Shown: positions 8,758 to 55,260 of the stretch, piece by piece
How positions within the stretch are numbered: the first letter of the stretch is position 1
Layout: each line of letters opens with the position of its first letter
Source of the DNA: Felixounavirus LF110P4
Sequence record: OZ035790.1
Length of the DNA stretch: 64,000 nucleotides
Strand: one strand, 5' to 3'
The notes under the pieces: generated by a model
What the model saw: the letters and a program-made list of their open reading frames with translations, nothing else
What the model was told of the DNA's origin: nothing
Database searches by the model: none
Made by a program: the position numbers and the translations under genes

Positions 8758-10110
8758 ATGTGGAATCCAATTGTTAATGTAGATATTACATTGAACACCG
8801 CAGGAACTACAAGAGAAGGTTTTGGCTTGCCACTATTCTTAGCTTCAACAGACAACTTTGAAGAAAGAGTCCGTGGTTACACTTCCTTAACTGAAGTTGC
8901 TGAAGATTTCGATGAAAACTCTGCTGCATATAAGGCTGCTAAACAACTTTGGAGTCAGACTCCTAAAGTAACTCAGCTTTATATTGGTAGACGTGCTATG
9001 CAGTACACTGTATCAATCCCTAATGCTGTTACTGAAAGTACTGACTATTCAATTACTGTAGCTGCTGGCGGTGGAATTTCTCAACCATACCAGTACACAG
9101 CACAAGATTCAGACACTGCTGAGAACGTGTTGCAACAGTTTAAAACACAGATTGAAGCTGACCCAACAATCAAAGATAAGGTTTCTGTGAACGTAACTGG
9201 TAGCAATGGTTCTGCCACAATGGTTATTACCAAAGCTGGTGATAATGACTTTGTGAAAGTAACAACTACAGCACAGACTGTATATATTGCAAGTACAACT
9301 GCCGATACAGCATCAACTGCTCTGGCAGCTATTGAAGCTTATTCTACTGACTGGTATTTCATTGCAGCAGAAGATAGAACTCAACAGTTTGTCTTAGCAA
9401 TGGCTTCTGAGATTCAGGCTCGCAAGAAAATCTTCTTTACAGCTAACTCCGATGTAACAGCACTGCAAGGTACAGAGTTAGCCAGTGCAAATGATGTTCC
9501 AGCACAGCTTGCTAAGAGTATGTATACTCGCACAGTTTGCTTGTGGCATCACACAGCGGCAGAAGATTATCCAGAGATGGCATACATTGCTTATGGTGCT
9601 CCATATGATGCAGGTTCAATTGCTTGGGGTAATGCTCAGCTAACTGGTGTAGCTGCTTCTCTACAGCCAGCTAATAAGAGACCTCTGACAAGTATTCAGA
9701 AGTCAGCTTTAGATGCACGTCACTGTAACTTTATTGACCTTGATGGTGGTGTTCCAGTGGTTCGTAGAGGGATTACTTCTGGTGGGGAGTGGATTGATAT
9801 CGTCCGTGGTGTTGACTGGTTAGAATCAGACCTGAAAACTTCTCTGAGAGACTTGCTAATTAACCAGAAGGGTGGTAAGATTACTTATGATGATACTGGT
9901 ATTACCCGTATTCGTCAAGTCATTGAAACCTCTCTACAAAGAGCAGTCAACAGAAACTTCCTGTCATCTTACACAGTTAATGTTCCTAAAGCCTCTCAAG
10001 TTGCTTTAGCAGACAAGAAAGCACGTATCCTAAAAGACGTTACCTTCGCAGGTATCTTAGCAGGTGCTATCTTGGATGTTGACTTGAAAGGTACAGTGGC
10101 TTACGAATAA
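8758..10110 (+). CDS. tail sheath protein
   Basis: 450 aa ORF followed by a ~150 aa tube gene, chaperone pair and tape measure: canonical contractile-tail order. Confidence 0.65.
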   Translation: MWNPIVNVDITLNTAGTTREGFGLPLFLASTDNFEERVRGYTSLTEVAEDFDENSAAYKAAKQLWSQTPKVTQLYIGRRAMQYTVSIPNAVTESTDYSITVAAGGGISQPYQYTAQDSDTAENVLQQFKTQIEADPTIKDKVSVNVTGSNGSATMVITKAGDNDFVKVTTTAQTVYIASTTADTASTALAAIEAYSTDWYFIAAEDRTQQFVLAMASEIQARKKIFFTANSDVTALQGTELASANDVPAQLAKSMYTRTVCLWHHTAAEDYPEMAYIAYGAPYDAGSIAWGNAQLTGVAASLQPANKRPLTSIQKSALDARHCNFIDLDGGVPVVRRGITSGGEWIDIVRGVDWLESDLKTSLRDLLINQKGGKITYDDTGITRIRQVIETSLQRAVNRNFLSSYTVNVPKASQVALADKKARILKDVTFAGILAGAILDVDLKGTVAYE

Positions 10111-10125
10111 TAGAGGTAAATTGGA

Positions 10126-10572
10126 ATGGCTATGTATCAGCAATATTCCCCTAAAGACGTTGTATGTAGCTGGAATGGTATTGCCATTGAAGGCTTTGCC
10201 CCAGACTCATTCTTGCGTCTACAGAGAACATCACCACTTGTGACACCAGTTGTTGGTGCAGGTGGTCAGGTTGCTCTGACAAGAAATGCAGACAAGACAG
10301 GTACTATCGAGATTGAGTTAATGCAGACTTCTCTCTCTAACCAGATGCTTTCTGCAATTCAAGCTAAACAAGACAATATGGAACTTGAAGAAGACATCTC
10401 TTCTAACTTCGTAATCTACGACCCATCAGGCTCTGTTCTGGCAACTGGTATTAATGCTTGGTTGCAGGAGTTACCACAGATTGAACTTGGTCGTGACCAG
10501 AACTCTAAAACTTGGATTTTTGGTTGTGAGAAGCTAGACTACACTTCTACAATTCCAGCGTCAAGTGTTTAA
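10126..10572 (+). CDS. tail tube protein
   Basis: 148 aa ORF after sheath; followed by intrinsic terminator. Confidence 0.6.
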   Translation: MAMYQQYSPKDVVCSWNGIAIEGFAPDSFLRLQRTSPLVTPVVGAGGQVALTRNADKTGTIEIELMQTSLSNQMLSAIQAKQDNMELEEDISSNFVIYDPSGSVLATGINAWLQELPQIELGRDQNSKTWIFGCEKLDYTSTIPASSV

Positions 10573-10584
10573 TAAATCCTATAA

Positions 10585-10616
10585 GGGGGAGACTTTAAAA
10601 GGTCTTCCCCTTTTTT
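10585..10616 (+). terminator. intrinsic terminator after tail tube gene
   Basis: gggggagac-loop-ggtcttcccc then TTTTTTGTTT. Confidence 0.65.
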
Positions 10617-10645
10617 GTTTCTTTTAAAAGTATTAAGGAATCACA

Positions 10646-11044
10646 ATGAAAACAGAATCTAGAGTAATTAATGGTAAGAAAGTAAATATCGTTCTGCTTG
10701 GGGCAAGAGATGGTATTAAGATGTCTATGAAGTTGGGTAAAATTGTTGTTCCAACTTTTGCACAGATGCTGTCAAGTCTGACTGACAAGGGTAAGAAAGA
10801 AGCTCCAATGGTTCCATTTAAAGAACTTGTTGAAGCTTGTTTTGACAGAATTGAAGAAATTAACCTTGAAGAAATGGCTACCCTGTTATTTCAAGGAGCA
10901 ACTGTTGATGACTTCCCACTTAATATTGATACATACTTCCAAGCAAACTATGGTGAATTTATTGATTACTTAGCATTTGCGCTGGAGGCAAACTTCGGAA
11001 GTTTTTTCGAAGCAAGCATTTTCAAAAGCCTAACTTCTCAGTAA
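10646..11044 (+). CDS. tail assembly chaperone (G-like, zero-frame product)
   Basis: 132 aa ORF between tube and tape measure; contains slippery heptamer near its 3' end. Confidence 0.6.
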   Translation: MKTESRVINGKKVNIVLLGARDGIKMSMKLGKIVVPTFAQMLSSLTDKGKKEAPMVPFKELVEACFDRIEEINLEEMATLLFQGATVDDFPLNIDTYFQANYGEFIDYLAFALEANFGSFFEASIFKSLTSQ

Positions 11045-11285
11045 ACATGGGTAACACTCTACAGACACCACTAACTGATGCTGCTGTAGAGGCAACCTAT
11101 GAAGAAGCAGACGAGATGAAATTTGTGCTTGCTATTTATGGTATGGAAGGGTGTAAAGAAACACTTGACCAACTCTTTGCTATGACATTCTCTGATTTAT
11201 TATCATTGAGACAATTTCTTGAAATTCAGAGGTCGTATAAAGAGGAAATTGCTTACAACGAACTTAGAAGAGCAGGAAAAATGTA

Positions 11286-11286
<1 letters not shown>
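10646..11286 (+). CDS. tail assembly chaperone -1 frameshift fusion product (GT-like)
   Basis: -1 frame is open from 10966 to 11286 and overlaps the end of the 10646 ORF; T_TTT_TTC slippery site at 11002-11008; canonical position upstream of tape measure. Confidence 0.5.
11002..11008 (+). other. candidate -1 programmed ribosomal frameshift slippery heptamer (T TTT TTC)
   Basis: zero-frame codons agT TTT TTC; -1 frame continues into the ORF annotated 11047..11286. Confidence 0.5.
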
Positions 11287-19305
<8,019 letters not shown>

Positions 19306-42053: not shown

Positions 42054-42550
42054 GAAAAATAAAAGGTTTTGGCAATTGCCCTGAATATGGACATTGGGTT
42101 TCACTATGTGGTGAAGTTGACCCAGCAAAGCACTTTGGTTTTGTCTACCTAGTATACTGCAAAAAGACCGGACAGTACTATTTGGGTAAGAAACAGCTTA
42201 ACAGTGTGACCAAAAGAAAAGTTGCTGGGAAGACTCGGAAGAAGGTAGTCACTAAGGAGAGTGATTGGATGACTTATGAGACTTCTTCTGAGTATATTAA
42301 AAAAGATATTGAGAGCTTTGGAAAAGAATTTTTTGACTTTTACATTATCCAAACCTACTACACAAAAGGTGGCCTAGTCTATGGTGAAGCAAACCTTCAA
42401 CATAAATTCGATGTAATGACAAAAAGGATTGACTCTAAGCTCAGACTCTTCTACAATGCCAACATTGCAGCAATTAAGTTTATCACTAAAGAAACTTATG
42501 AAGATGCTGAAAAAAGAATCCATAAGGTAATGAAAGCGAATTGTGCTTGA
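42050..42550 (+). CDS. hypothetical protein, possible GIY-YIG-like nuclease
   Basis: FGFVYLVYCKKTGQYYLGKK loosely resembles a GIY-YIG motif. Confidence 0.3.
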   Translation: MRKIKGFGNCPEYGHWVSLCGEVDPAKHFGFVYLVYCKKTGQYYLGKKQLNSVTKRKVAGKTRKKVVTKESDWMTYETSSEYIKKDIESFGKEFFDFYIIQTYYTKGGLVYGEANLQHKFDVMTKRIDSKLRLFYNANIAAIKFITKETYEDAEKRIHKVMKANCA

Positions 42551-42571
42551 TAACTATTGAGAGAGAATAAA

Positions 42572-42802
42572 ATGTTTAACAAAAGTAAAGCTGTGAGTCA
42601 TGTAGCAAAGGTTGACAGCAAGATTGAAGAACTTGAGCGCATTCTTGCAAATGCCAGAGAGTCAATAATTAAAGAAGTTGAAGCTGTTGAATCTCAAATG
42701 CAACACCTAATGCTTAAACGTCAAGAGTTACGTGAGCATCTGGAATATATTGAAACACGAGAGCTAAAGGTTAACAGATTTTTAAGGAGTCCAAATGTTT
42801 AA
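42572..42802 (+). CDS. hypothetical coiled-coil protein
   Basis: track ORF 42557..42802 trimmed to first ATG. Confidence 0.35.
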   Translation: MFNKSKAVSHVAKVDSKIEELERILANARESIIKEVEAVESQMQHLMLKRQELREHLEYIETRELKVNRFLRSPNV

Positions 42803-43550
42803 CTCAAGAGAAGCAGTAAAAAACTGGAATCTTCGTTGTGGAAACACTCAAAAGCAACCTTACAGTGATGAGTATTGGGAATCTTTAAAATCCCAGTCTC
42901 TGTGTATGCTTGAAGAAGCAAAAGAGCTTGTAAAAGCAATTGAAGAGAAAGACCCCATTGAGACACTGGATGCTCAGGCAGATTTGCAATATGTTCTTGA
43001 TGGTCTGATTTATCTGTCACAACATGACCATAACGGTGCTATGAAAGCTGTTTGCCATAATAATGACCTGAAGTACACAGATGACTATGAAGAAGCTTTA
43101 AAGCGTCTTGTAGATGTTGAGAAGCGTACTGGTCAAGAGTGTATCATCAGAATGTCAGTGGTTGATGGTAAAGAGTGGTATGCGATTGTCCGTGCAGCCG
43201 ATGGGAAGATTATGAAGCAATCAAACCTCCCTAAAGTGCAGCTTGGTGAATACATTGTAGAGCTTGAAAGCCAAGAACTTTTTGTGGTAGTATCTGAGAC
43301 ATGCGTTATCTGCAAAGGTATTGTAGGTAGCTTAAAGGATTTGGGTGTAGATGGTTTTGTAGAAGTTAATCCAATTACCTCTAAAGCAGATAAAGATTTC
43401 TGTAAAGAGAATGGACTATGGATTGCAGATATTGTCTACTATGATGGTGAGCAGTTCCATGTAACCTCATACCCGAAACTGAATTATGATGCTAATAACC
43501 TGAAGTGCTGGTTAAAAGGGGTTGGTTATAATGGATTCACAGAACATTAA
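42795..43550 (+). CDS. hypothetical protein (N-terminal region with weak MazG-like acidic helices)
   Basis: 251 aa; EEAKELVKAIEE ... DLQYVLDGL pattern only weakly suggestive. Confidence 0.3.
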   Translation: MFNSREAVKNWNLRCGNTQKQPYSDEYWESLKSQSLCMLEEAKELVKAIEEKDPIETLDAQADLQYVLDGLIYLSQHDHNGAMKAVCHNNDLKYTDDYEEALKRLVDVEKRTGQECIIRMSVVDGKEWYAIVRAADGKIMKQSNLPKVQLGEYIVELESQELFVVVSETCVICKGIVGSLKDLGVDGFVEVNPITSKADKDFCKENGLWIADIVYYDGEQFHVTSYPKLNYDANNLKCWLKGVGYNGFTEH

Positions 43551-54096: not shown

Positions 54097-54367
54097 AGAA
54101 AAGTGGGAGATTTTAACATTAGTCAGTGAAGGAGGTAATGGTTGTGAAATGTACATGATACGTGGTCATGTTCCAGAGCCAATTGCACTTGAGATGGTAA
54201 ACAACTTTACAGATGGTTCTTACAAAGACTTAGGCGAACCAACTGTCAAGCAACAATGGGTTAAACCTGTACCAGACAGCACAGGTAACTGTAGTGTACT
54301 TTATCACGTTGTAGACCCTGCAAAATGCAAATCTGCAATGGCAGTAACAAACGTAACTTTTGATTGA
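54089..54367 (+). CDS. hypothetical protein
   Basis: 92 aa ORF. Confidence 0.35.
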   Translation: MAKEKWEILTLVSEGGNGCEMYMIRGHVPEPIALEMVNNFTDGSYKDLGEPTVKQQWVKPVPDSTGNCSVLYHVVDPAKCKSAMAVTNVTFD

Positions 54368-54378
54368 GAGAGAAAACT

Positions 54379-55260
54379 ATGAAAACATCTATCCGTGTTA
54401 CAGTTCATTCACCAACTAAAGGAACTCATGAAGAAGAGTTTAACATCATCCAATTTCCTTCTGGTGAGATTGGTGGACACTTTTCGCCAGAGTTTGTTGA
54501 TTTCACTGCTTATGCAGCATCATCCATCAACAATGTGATTATGATTGTAAAAGGTTATGATAAGGACACTTTGTTTGCTGTGGCACTTGCTAAAGAAGCA
54601 ATTGATGATTTAATTCCTCATGATTATGCTTTAAAGACTGTCATCTTTTACTACTTACCAAATGCACGTTATGACCGTCACATGTTTAAAGGCGACGCAG
54701 CAGCTTTAAAGGTTTTTGCTAAACAGGTAAATGCAATGGGATTTGGTGCAGTCTGTGCAGTTGACCCTCACAGTTACGTTCCAGATAACCTGTTTAACTG
54801 CTTCCAGAGTATTCCTCAAAAGGAGATTGCAGTCCACTATGCAAATGACCCACTGGTTGATTACTTAGTAGCCCCAGATGCAGGTGCTGCTAAGAAGGTT
54901 GCAGAGACCGCTAAAGAGGTGGATAAACCATATATCACAATGTCTAAGGTGCGTAACCTTAAGACTGGTGAAATTACTGGTATGCGAATCCTTGATGATG
55001 TTGATTTGACAGATAAAACCGTCATGATTCTGGATGATATCTGTGATGGTGGTCGAACCTTCATAGAAGCAGCTAAGCATCTTCGTGAAGCAGGTGCAAA
55101 ACGTGTGGAACTCTATGTAACACATGGTATCTTCTCTAAAGATGTTGAAAACCTTCTTGACAATGGTATTGACCACATCTACACTACAAACTCTTTAGGG
55201 GAAGCTAAAGACCGTGGTTTAACACATTATGGTCAAGTTACTGTAGCAAATTTGGACTAG
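54379..55260 (+). CDS. prs: ribose-phosphate pyrophosphokinase-like protein (PRPP synthetase family; candidate NARP1 Adps)
   Basis: phosphoribosyltransferase PRPP-binding motif VMILDDICDGGRTF; ~294 aa; paired with NAMPT-like gene. Confidence 0.75.
   Translation: MKTSIRVTVHSPTKGTHEEEFNIIQFPSGEIGGHFSPEFVDFTAYAASSINNVIMIVKGYDKDTLFAVALAKEAIDDLIPHDYALKTVIFYYLPNARYDRHMFKGDAAALKVFAKQVNAMGFGAVCAVDPHSYVPDNLFNCFQSIPQKEIAVHYANDPLVDYLVAPDAGAAKKVAETAKEVDKPYITMSKVRNLKTGEITGMRILDDVDLTDKTVMILDDICDGGRTFIEAAKHLREAGAKRVELYVTHGIFSKDVENLLDNGIDHIYTTNSLGEAKDRGLTHYGQVTVANLD

What the first reader, a model, noticed from the sequence alone, without database searches (positions are those of the whole stretch)
10966..11044. 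Programmed -1 frameshift site in the tail assembly chaperone
The -1 frame is open from 10966 through 11286 and overlaps the last 26 codons of the 10646-11044 ORF. Within the overlap, the zero-frame codons agT TTT TTC (11002-11008) form a canonical X_XXY_YYZ slippery heptamer. Position between tail tube and tape measure matches the conserved G/GT chaperone frameshift of long-tailed phages. The track lists the second frame as a separate ORF (11047-11286).
Basis: partly seen in the sequence, partly recalled or inferred. Interest (0 to 1): 0.5.

Follow-up and report, generated by a model that had tools for sequence, protein, structure and literature searches.

The report
Tail chaperone -1 frameshift site, FelixO1-like phage
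This is the usual programmed -1 ribosomal slip that long-tailed phages use to make a short and a long tail-assembly chaperone from one start; it is well supported here by comparison with relatives, and already reported for the sister genus.

Summary
The window is a Felixounavirus (FelixO1-like myophage) with the gene order sheath, tube, chaperone ORF1 (10646-11044), ORF2 (11047-11286), tape measure. The -1 frame is open from 10966 to 11286. T_TTT_TTC sits in phase at 11002-11008.

- The heptamer lies at the same codons in five groups of Ounavirinae-type phages. It is T_TTT_TTT in distant viral contigs with 27-35% protein identity.
- The downstream domain has no start codon in Erwinia (Kolesnikvirus) phages.
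- The ATG at 11047 has no Shine-Dalgarno sequence and is not positionally conserved.
- Synonymous variation in ORF1 collapses from the heptamer to the stop: 1 of 14 third positions vary, against 84 of 106 upstream (p=2e-7).
- No downstream RNA structure was found, as reported for phage P2 E/E+E' (TTTTTTG).
- A GGAGG 13 nt upstream may act as a dnaX-like stimulator. That is inferred only.

It is not new. The same frameshift is published for the FelixO1-like phages Moogle and Michonne and is annotated as a joined CDS in the RefSeq record of Mordin. All six Felixounavirus phages I checked still list two separate genes. Interest is low; the value is a correction to annotation.

The parts
10126..10572 (+). 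Tail tube gene (context: upstream neighbour that defines the chaperone position)
   Evidence: PHROG 280, E=1.2e-47; Pfam KPP10_Orf10. Follows the sheath gene 8758-10110 (PHROG 205, E=3.5e-124).
10646..11044 (+). Tail assembly chaperone ORF1. Zero-frame product is the short, G-like protein (132 aa).
   Evidence: Pfam Phage_TAC_15 E=1.7e-19; PHROG 1613 E=2.9e-48. Its start has a good Shine-Dalgarno sequence, -6.1 kcal/mol.
10984..10988 (+). GGAGG, a Shine-Dalgarno-like sequence 13 nt upstream of the heptamer. Possible dnaX-type 5' stimulator (inferred, not shown).
   Evidence: Sequence read. GGAG is invariant in 32 Felixouna-, Moogle- and Suspvirus sequences. GGAG lies 11-13 nt upstream of the heptamer in 8 of the 12 lineages compared, is weakened in YenP778 and L044, and is absent in Kolesnikvirus. 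The 9-14 nt spacing rule for -1 shifts comes from PMC5009743.
11002..11008 (+). Slippery heptamer T_TTT_TTC (zero-frame codons agT TTT TTC). Proposed site of tandem -1 slippage of two tRNA-Phe.
   Evidence: Phase confirmed. Present at the same codons in every relative compared. U_UU.U_UU.C is listed among shift-prone motifs in E. coli (PMC4066793).
11009..11041 (+). Dual-coding stretch read in both frames: zero frame EASIFKSLTSQ, -1 frame RSKHFQKPNFSV. Almost invariant at the DNA level.
   Evidence: Only 1 of 14 ORF1 third-codon positions varies from 11002 to 11041, against 84 of 106 upstream (Fisher p=2e-7). A 41-nt island (window 10991-11031) is the only DNA match to Erwinia phages, at 92.7% identity. 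Alignment.
11008..11286 (+). -1 frame continuation (T-like C-terminal extension, 92 codons plus stop). With 10646-11008 it gives a predicted 213-aa fusion protein.
   Evidence: Translation. ORF2 part matches PHROG 4963 'tail assembly chaperone', E=2.8e-55. The homologous domain has no start codon in Kolesnikvirus.
11047..11049 (+). ATG used by annotators as the start of a separate ORF2. Probably not a conserved initiation site.
   Evidence: No Shine-Dalgarno sequence: +0.7 kcal/mol, with only 3.5% of 85 genes as weak or weaker. Positions 11047 and 11049 vary among relatives and the linker 11042-11059 is hypervariable.
11286..13514 (+). Tape measure protein gene (context: downstream neighbour)
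   Evidence: Pfam TMP_3 E=1e-16; PHROG 4036 E=0.

Best explanation
This is a programmed -1 ribosomal frameshift in the tail assembly chaperone gene of a FelixO1-like myophage.

Proposed mechanism:
- Ribosomes start at ATG 10646. Most of them terminate at TAA 11042-11044 and make the 132-aa chaperone.
- A minority slip while TTT (11003-11005) is in the P site and TTC (11006-11008) is in the A site. Both tRNA-Phe move back one base and re-pair with TTT and TTT.
- Decoding then continues with CGA at 11008 in the -1 frame and ends at TAA 11284-11286.
- The result is a 213-aa fusion protein (...NFGSFF|RSKHFQKP...), with ORF2 as its C-terminal domain.

By analogy with lambda gpG/gpGT and P2 E/E+E', the shared N-terminal domain would bind the tape measure protein, and the extension would recruit the tube protein. 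The slip frequency would fix the ratio of the two products.

Shown here: the anatomy, the conservation, the lack of an independent start, and the dual-coding constraint.
Inferred: the slip itself, its efficiency, the roles of the two domains, and any help from the upstream GGAGG.
For: - Anatomy is exact.
- ORF1 is a chaperone, lying between the tube and tape measure genes.
- T_TTT_TTC is in the same phase and at the same codons in Mooglevirus, Suspvirus, Kolesnikvirus and Yersinia phage P778.
- T_TTT_TTT sits at the homologous NFxSFF position in viral contigs of 27-35% identity (L041-L045). Each has a -1 ORF running 57-69 codons beyond the ORF1 stop. The order tube, chaperone, tape measure was checked in L041.
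- In Kolesnikvirus the -1 frame has no ATG, GTG or TTG before the conserved domain. phiEa21-4 leaves the region unannotated.
- ATG 11047 lacks a Shine-Dalgarno sequence, and its position is not conserved.
- Synonymous variation drops to 1/14 from the heptamer to the stop, against 6/12 in the overlap before the heptamer and 84/106 further upstream. This places the start of dual coding at the heptamer.
- Only 1 of 25 Phe-Phe dipeptides in the window is slippery.
- The RefSeq record of Mordin has a joined CDS whose length matches the predicted 212-aa fusion.
- The Moogle and Michonne papers state that a -1 frameshift occurs in this gene.
- U_UU.U_UU.C is shift-prone in E. coli.
- P2 uses TTTTTTG without a hairpin.
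Against: - There is no protein-level evidence for this phage or, as far as I found, for any Ounavirinae member. The published statements are annotations by homology.
- No downstream stimulatory structure was found: fold z-score 0.46, consensus fold about 0 kcal/mol with no covariation, and no Rfam match. Efficiency may therefore be low.
- In this genus an ATG lies 2 nt after the ORF1 stop, so some termination-reinitiation cannot be excluded.
- The strong conservation downstream of the heptamer could come from two conserved peptides alone. It does not separately prove an RNA signal.
- The sequences in the synonymous-site test are related, so the p-value is approximate.
Confidence: 0.86

Rival explanations
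1. ORF2 is made only as a free 79-aa protein. Translation starts at ATG 11047, either on its own or by termination-reinitiation after the TAA at 11042-11044. On this view the heptamer is an accident of encoding Ser-Phe-Phe.
For: An ATG lies 2 nt after the ORF1 stop in Felixounavirus. All six Felixounavirus phages sampled annotate two separate CDSs. In-phase heptamers are not rare: 54 occur in the window.
Against: - The ATG has no Shine-Dalgarno sequence: +0.7 kcal/mol, weaker than the median background ATG at -1.6.
- The ATG moves or is duplicated in Mooglevirus and Suspvirus, becomes TTG at best in the Yersinia phage, and is missing in Kolesnikvirus and the distant clade, while the domain itself is conserved.
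- Synonymous sites are frozen upstream of the ATG, from the heptamer onward.
- The codon choices AGT and TTT that create the T run are kept in all lineages, although TTT makes up only 60% of Phe codons and AGT 17% of Ser codons.
Confidence: 0.07
2. The frame change happens during transcription. RNA polymerase stutters on the T6 run and adds one U, and the edited mRNA encodes the same fusion protein (S-F-F-R-S-K).
For: The site is a homopolymer: T6 here and T7 in the distant clade. Sharma et al. note that U7 is depleted in E. coli genes, possibly because of transcriptional slippage. The resulting protein sequence would be identical, so mass spectrometry could not tell the two routes apart.
Against: By general knowledge, efficient bacterial transcriptional slippage needs runs of about 9 or more, so six T is short. 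The motif is a perfect in-phase tandem-slippage heptamer of a type measured as shift-prone in E. coli. The closest characterised case, P2 TTTTTTG, is described as a translational frameshift.
Confidence: 0.04
3. A frameshift occurs, but at a different place in the 79-nt overlap, or needs an unrecognised stimulator such as the conserved GCAAGCATTTTCAAAAGCC block.
For: The near-invariant block extends 23 nt or more past the heptamer and survives in Erwinia phages, where the rest of the gene has diverged.
Against: T_TTT_TTC is the only in-phase X_XXY_YYZ heptamer in the overlap in every Ounavirinae lineage. Variation continues up to 10993 and stops just before the heptamer. The block is fully explained by two conserved peptides (EASIFK and RSKHFQKP) and folds no better than shuffled sequence. 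The distant clade keeps the T run but not the block.
Confidence: 0.03

Closest known systems
Tape measure chaperone frameshift of the FelixO1-like Citrobacter phages Moogle, Michonne, Mordin and Mijalis (Mooglevirus, Ounavirinae)
   Same: The genes are orthologous, about 80% DNA identity over the region and 77% protein identity for ORF1. The heptamer TTTTTTC is identical and at the same codons, the downstream block is the same, and the -1 ORF ends at the tape measure start. The frameshift is published (PMC4319497, PMC4591319) and annotated as a joined CDS in NC_041977.
   Different: The window belongs to the genus Felixounavirus, where all six phages sampled list two separate CDSs. The linker after the ORF1 stop and the position of the in-frame ATG differ. 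The overlap is 79 nt here against 88 nt there.
Phage P2 E / E+E' (myovirus tail chaperone, -1 shift at TTTTTTG)
   Same: Both are contractile-tailed phages with the gene just upstream of the tape measure gene. Both use a T6-run heptamer, have no downstream hairpin, and make two products from one start (PMC3091744).
   Different: The last base of the heptamer is C, not G. No sequence similarity was detected: the Pfam hit is Phage_TAC_15 only. The products are larger, 132/213 aa against 91/142 aa. P2 is experimentally verified; this site is not.
Phage lambda gpG / gpGT (the founding example; Levin 1993, Xu 2004, as summarised in PMC5009743)
   Same: The genome position is the same, and the logic is the same: a short chaperone plus a rare fusion whose extra domain binds the tube protein. 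Neither product is expected in virions.
   Different: Lambda is a siphovirus. Its heptamer is G_GGA_AAG (from my own knowledge) and involves different tRNAs. The proteins are unrelated at the sequence level.
E. coli dnaX -1 frameshift (A_AAA_AAG with an upstream Shine-Dalgarno-like stimulator and a downstream hairpin)
   Same: A GGAGG lies 13 nt upstream of the heptamer, inside the 9-14 nt range reported to stimulate -1 shifts.
   Different: There is no downstream hairpin. The Shine-Dalgarno-like sequence is not conserved in all lineages, and its effect is untested. The outcome is an extended protein, not a truncated one.

Membership tests
G/GT-type tail assembly chaperone with programmed frameshift (Xu, Hendrix & Duda 2004) | The gene pair lies between the major tail/tube gene and the tape measure gene | tested here: met
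   Tube 10126-10572, ORF1 10646-11044, ORF2 11047-11286, tape measure 11286-13514.
G/GT-type tail assembly chaperone with programmed frameshift (Xu, Hendrix & Duda 2004) | The upstream ORF is a tail assembly chaperone | tested here: met
   Pfam PF21822 Phage_TAC_15, 71 bits against a cut-off of 22; PHROG 1613.
G/GT-type tail assembly chaperone with programmed frameshift (Xu, Hendrix & Duda 2004) | The second ORF overlaps the 3' end of the first in a shifted frame and lacks credible initiation signals of its own | tested here: met
   79-nt overlap in the -1 frame. ATG 11047 has no Shine-Dalgarno sequence. Kolesnikvirus and the distant clade have no start codon at all. Caveat: an ATG does exist in this genus.
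G/GT-type tail assembly chaperone with programmed frameshift (Xu, Hendrix & Duda 2004) | An in-phase slippery sequence lies within the overlap | tested here: met
   T_TTT_TTC at 11002-11008, the only such heptamer in the overlap.
G/GT-type tail assembly chaperone with programmed frameshift (Xu, Hendrix & Duda 2004) | The slippery site and the two-frame arrangement are conserved among diverged relatives | tested here: met
   Five Ounavirinae-type groups plus five distant viral contigs. Synonymous-site suppression begins at the heptamer.
G/GT-type tail assembly chaperone with programmed frameshift (Xu, Hendrix & Duda 2004) | Two proteins with a common N-terminus are made at a fixed ratio | not testable with these tools
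   Needs proteomics, western blot or a reporter assay. The text of the VpaE1 virion proteome paper held here did not mention these genes.
G/GT-type tail assembly chaperone with programmed frameshift (Xu, Hendrix & Duda 2004) | Both products are required for tail assembly and are absent from mature virions | not testable with these tools
   Needs genetics and virion proteomics.
P2 gpE / E+E' protein family | Sequence similarity to P2 gpE | tested here: not met
   A Pfam scan at E<=0.1 returned only Phage_TAC_15 and one weak unrelated hit. The resemblance to P2 is in mechanism (T6-run heptamer, no hairpin), not in homology detectable here.
dnaX-type stimulated -1 frameshift | An internal Shine-Dalgarno-like sequence 9-14 nt upstream of the shift site | tested here: inconclusive
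   GGAGG is present 13 nt upstream (spacing rule from PMC5009743). It is conserved in enterobacterial members and most distant contigs but absent in Kolesnikvirus. It also encodes the conserved Leu-Glu-Ala, so its function cannot be judged from sequence.
dnaX-type stimulated -1 frameshift | A downstream stimulatory hairpin or pseudoknot 5-9 nt after the heptamer | tested here: not met
   Minimum free energy -12.4 kcal/mol against a shuffle mean of -13.7, z=0.46. Consensus fold about 0 kcal/mol with no compensatory pairs. No Rfam family matched.

The most novel reading that the evidence does not exclude
The near-invariant 31-nt block around and after the heptamer (AGTTTTTTCGARGCAAGCWTTTTCAAAARCC) is kept at about 93% identity in Erwinia phages, where the rest of the gene has diverged beyond DNA-level detection. 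It might be more than dual coding. It could be a structure-free frameshift stimulator, acting through mRNA-rRNA contacts, through the nascent peptide ...NFGSFF in the exit tunnel, or together with the upstream GGAGG. That would set slip efficiency without any hairpin.
Probability: 0.1. Interest if true: 0.45.

Novelty: already known. Interest (0 to 1): 0.15.

Why it matters
The biology is textbook. The chaperone frameshift is conserved across long-tailed phages, and it has been described for FelixO1-like phages of the sister genus at an identical heptamer.

The practical value is curatorial. All six Felixounavirus phages I sampled, including the RefSeq record of VpaE1, list the T domain as an independent 79-aa gene. 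The Erwinia phage records either leave it unannotated or truncate it. FelixO1-like phages are widely used for Salmonella and E. coli diagnostics and biocontrol, so a correct gene model (join 10646..11008, 11008..11286) is useful.

The comparative signals here give a clean example for benchmarking frameshift predictors. They are a start-codon-less T domain in one genus, frozen synonymous sites that begin at the heptamer, and a T run retained at 27-35% identity.

Tried and rejected
- **Downstream stimulatory structure.** A single-sequence fold of 11002-11090 was no better than shuffles (z=0.46). An RNAalifold run on 7 lineages gave about 0 kcal/mol and no covariation. An Rfam E-value scan of 10500-11500 hit only the terminator region weakly. 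Rejected for Ounavirinae. By eye, distant contigs L041-L045 may have a short hairpin 5-6 nt downstream, which I did not test.
- **Small hairpin plus T run at 10982-10998.** The terminator scan flagged it, but at chance level (2 found against 1.1 expected) and with weak G-U-rich pairing. I do not consider it functional.
- **+1 frame.** Closed by stops at 11031 and 11052.
- **Other heptamers in the overlap.** None in Ounavirinae.
- **Solved-structure relatives of the fusion protein.** None.
- **NCBIfam.** No family matched.
- **Virion proteomics in the VpaE1 paper.** The protein list is in a figure that is not held as text, so nothing could be read. Chaperones are not expected in virions anyway.
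- **Phage-encoded tRNA-Phe that might modulate slippage.** The window holds no tRNA genes.
- **Not used, because the answer would not change the verdict:** the large protein database searches, structure prediction, and the metagenome or genome collection scans.

Full report
**1. What the window is.**
The 4.9-kb stretch around the finding is 97-98% identical to Escherichia phage vB_EcoM-VpaE1 and to many other Felixounavirus genomes. In all, 297 phage records match it. The 731-nt core is up to 99.7% identical to phage ECML-1. The local genes, all on the + strand, are:
- tail sheath, 8758-10110 (PHROG 205, E=3.5e-124; Pfam DUF3383);
- tail tube, 10126-10572 (PHROG 280; Pfam KPP10_Orf10);
- ORF1, 10646-11044 (Pfam Phage_TAC_15, E=1.7e-19; PHROG 1613 'tail assembly chaperone');
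- ORF2, 11047-11286 (PHROG 4963 'tail assembly chaperone', no Pfam match);
- tape measure protein, 11286-13514 (Pfam TMP_3; PHROG 4036).

**2. The observation.**
It is correct in every coordinate. ORF1 codons run ...GGA AGT TTT TTC GAA..., so T_TTT_TTC at 11002-11008 is an in-phase X_XXY_YYZ heptamer. The -1 frame carries 19 stop codons between 10660 and 10963. It then has none until TAA at 11284-11286, so it is open from 10966 to 11286. ORF2 lies in that frame. The +1 frame is closed (stops at 11031 and 11052). A -1 slip on the heptamer predicts a 213-aa fusion: MKTES...LEANFGSFF|RSKHFQKPNFSVNMGNTLQTPLTD...RRAGKM.

**3. Is it more than chance?**
A heptamer alone is weak evidence. I counted 54 in-phase X_XXY_YYZ (Y = A or T) motifs in about 59 kb of ORFs in this AT-rich window. 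That gives about 0.07 expected in a 26-codon overlap. Only two of the 54 are followed by a long open -1 frame. One is this site, with 92 codons. The other sits one codon before a gene end at 55248, which I read as an ordinary overlap with the next gene and did not check. Of 25 Phe-Phe dipeptides in the window's genes, only this one is encoded as T_TTT_TTY.

**4. Comparative evidence, the core of the case.**
- *Conservation of the heptamer.* I fetched the homologous region from Mooglevirus (Mordin, Sf17), Suspvirus (mistaenkt, PC79-13), Kolesnikvirus (phiEa21-4, SE5) and the unclassified Yersinia phage P778. ORF1 protein identity to the window falls to 52% (Yersinia) and 42% (Erwinia). Every one still has TTTTTTC in the same phase at the same codons (S-F-F), followed by a -1 ORF that ends at the tape measure start.
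- *Deeper relatives.* A scan of IMG/VR with the ORF1 alignment returned 36 loci. The five most useful distant ones (L041-L045, 27-35% identity) have T_TTT_TTT at the homologous NFxSFF position. Each has a -1 ORF running 57-69 codons past the ORF1 stop. L041 has the same order tube (PHROG 280), chaperone (PHROG 1613), tape measure.
- *No independent start.* In Kolesnikvirus the -1 frame reads FFRSKHFQKPVFRVGDGAVKCPRTEAAVDEGYKPDEATKF..., with no ATG, GTG or TTG ahead of the conserved domain. The phiEa21-4 record leaves this stretch unannotated, and SE5 calls only a 37-aa remnant. The distant clade likewise has no Met before the conserved YxVYxSKYNKE motif. Where an ATG exists its position drifts: SVNMGNTLQTPL here, SVSMSSAMQTPL in Suspvirus, SAGRLSYSMQTPL in Mooglevirus.
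- *Weak start signal.* In this window the ATG at 11047 has no Shine-Dalgarno complementarity. The duplex energy is +0.7 kcal/mol, against a median of -5.7 for 85 genes and -1.6 for background ATGs. Only 3.5% of genes are as weak or weaker.
- *Synonymous constraint.* I aligned 32 distinct Felixounavirus, Mooglevirus and Suspvirus sequences, which are 78-99.8% identical to the window. ORF1 third-codon positions vary at 84 of 106 sites upstream of the overlap. They vary at 6 of 12 sites in the part of the overlap before the heptamer, and at 1 of 14 sites from the heptamer to the last sense codon (Fisher p=2e-7 against upstream). Variation returns immediately after the ORF1 stop: 11042-11059 is hypervariable and includes the A and G of ATG 11047. 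This is the pattern expected if the -1 frame is translated from the heptamer onward, not from 11047.
- *DNA island.* In the DNA search, the only segment of the query that still matches Erwinia phages is a 41-nt island, window 10991-11031, at 92.7% identity.

**5. Stimulatory signals.**
- *Downstream.* I found none. The fold of 11002-11090 gives -12.4 kcal/mol against -13.7 for shuffles, z=0.46. The consensus fold of seven lineages is about 0 kcal/mol with no compensatory changes. No Rfam family matches. This fits the closest characterised myovirus case, P2 E/E+E', which shifts at TTTTTTG without a hairpin (PMC3091744).
- *The motif itself.* Sharma et al. list U_UU.U_UU.C among motifs giving more than 0.1% frameshifting in E. 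coli without stimulators. It falls within the H_HH.U_UU.Y class, which they rank among the most efficient (PMC4066793).
- *Upstream.* GGAGG at 10984-10988 lies 13 nt before the heptamer. That is inside the 9-14 nt range at which Shine-Dalgarno-like sequences stimulate -1 shifts (PMC5009743). GGAG is present 11-13 nt upstream in the enterobacterial genera and in most distant contigs. It is weakened in the Yersinia phage and absent in Kolesnikvirus. It also encodes the conserved Leu-Glu-Ala. Its role is a reasonable inference, not a finding.

**6. Mechanism.**
Most likely this is tandem -1 slippage of two tRNA-Phe on U_UUU_UUC. It would give a major 132-aa chaperone and a minor 213-aa fusion. 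By analogy with lambda gpG/gpGT (PMC5009743), the common domain would coat the tape measure protein and the extension would recruit tube subunits. The slip rate would set the stoichiometry. Shown here: anatomy, conservation, absence of an independent start in relatives, and dual-coding constraint. Inferred: the slip, its efficiency, and the binding partners.

**7. Rivals.**
- *A free ORF2 made from ATG 11047, including by termination-reinitiation.* This is contradicted as the conserved route by the points in section 4. It cannot be excluded as a minor extra product in this genus.
It is unlikely for a run of six (general knowledge), and the motif is a measured ribosomal shift motif.
- *A different shift site, or a novel stimulator in the conserved block.* The heptamer is the only candidate in the overlap. 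The block is explained by two conserved peptides, and the distant clade keeps the T run but not the block.

**8. Comparison with what is known, and novelty.**
This is a member of the conserved tail assembly chaperone frameshift class (Xu, Hendrix & Duda 2004, as cited). It is already described within the subfamily:
- The Michonne paper states a -1 shift in the tail assembly gene preceding the tape measure gene (PMC4591319).
- RefSeq NC_041977 (Mordin) carries a two-piece joined CDS of 638 nt. That matches my predicted 212-aa fusion at the same TTTTTTC.

In contrast, all six Felixounavirus phages I opened annotate two separate CDSs: VpaE1 (RefSeq record), GEC_vB_B1, ekra, Seyj1-1, BPS15S6 and pEP20. 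I did not survey all of the roughly 298 related records.

**9. Verdict.**
It is an already known kind of feature, already reported for close relatives. Interest is low (0.15). What remains of value is a corrected gene model for Felixounavirus and Kolesnikvirus records, and an untested possibility that the upstream GGAGG or the conserved block tunes the slip.

Noticed in passing
window 10583-10612 (plus T run to about 10621): A strong intrinsic-terminator-like hairpin (13-bp stem, 6 G-C pairs, 4-nt loop, then TTTTGTTTCT) lies between the tube gene and the chaperone gene. The equivalent site is annotated as a terminator in Mordin, wV8 and the KhF records. It could lower transcription of the chaperone and tape measure genes relative to sheath and tube.
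   Followed up: partly
window 10982-10998: A small weak hairpin (CTGGAG-GCAAA-CTTCGG) immediately before the T run was flagged as terminator-like. It overlaps the GGAGG. The scan total (2 found against 1.1 expected) is at chance level, and the pairing is G-U-rich.
   Followed up: partly
window 55248-55254: An in-phase AAATTTG heptamer lies one codon before the stop of ORF 54364-55260, with the -1 frame open for 168 codons. It is most likely just the next gene overlapping the stop, not a recoding site.
   Followed up: no
window 11042-11059: The linker right after the ORF1 stop is hypervariable among relatives, including the A and G of the annotated ORF2 start codon. It sits directly next to a near-invariant stretch, 10994-11041.
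   Followed up: yes
GenBank MG065664.1 (hit H34), positions 15285-16015: A record named 'Campylobacter phage A132' (70.7 kb, host Campylobacter jejuni) is 98.8% identical to this Felixounavirus chaperone region. The record may be mislabelled or contaminated.
   Followed up: no
L006 (phiEa21-4, EU710883) 1070-1305; L010 (SE5, MK770412) 1189-1302: In the Kolesnikvirus records the T-domain coding region is either unannotated or called as a 37-aa fragment, because it has no start codon. These gene models appear incomplete.
   Followed up: partly
L041 1854-1885; L042, L043 and L045, equivalent positions: In the distant viral contigs with T_TTT_TTT, the sequence 5-6 nt downstream can form a short hairpin by eye (for example AAAGGG-TATACAAG-CCCTTT in L041, GGAAACG...CGTTTTC in L042). 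This clade, unlike Ounavirinae, may therefore use a 3' stimulator. Not folded or tested.
   Followed up: no
GenBank LR699048.1 (hit H53), positions 42462-43192: The record of VpaE1_ev035 labels the features under the chaperone region 'Hc1 head closure protein | Phage protein | Tail sheath protein'. This looks like an automated misannotation.
   Followed up: no
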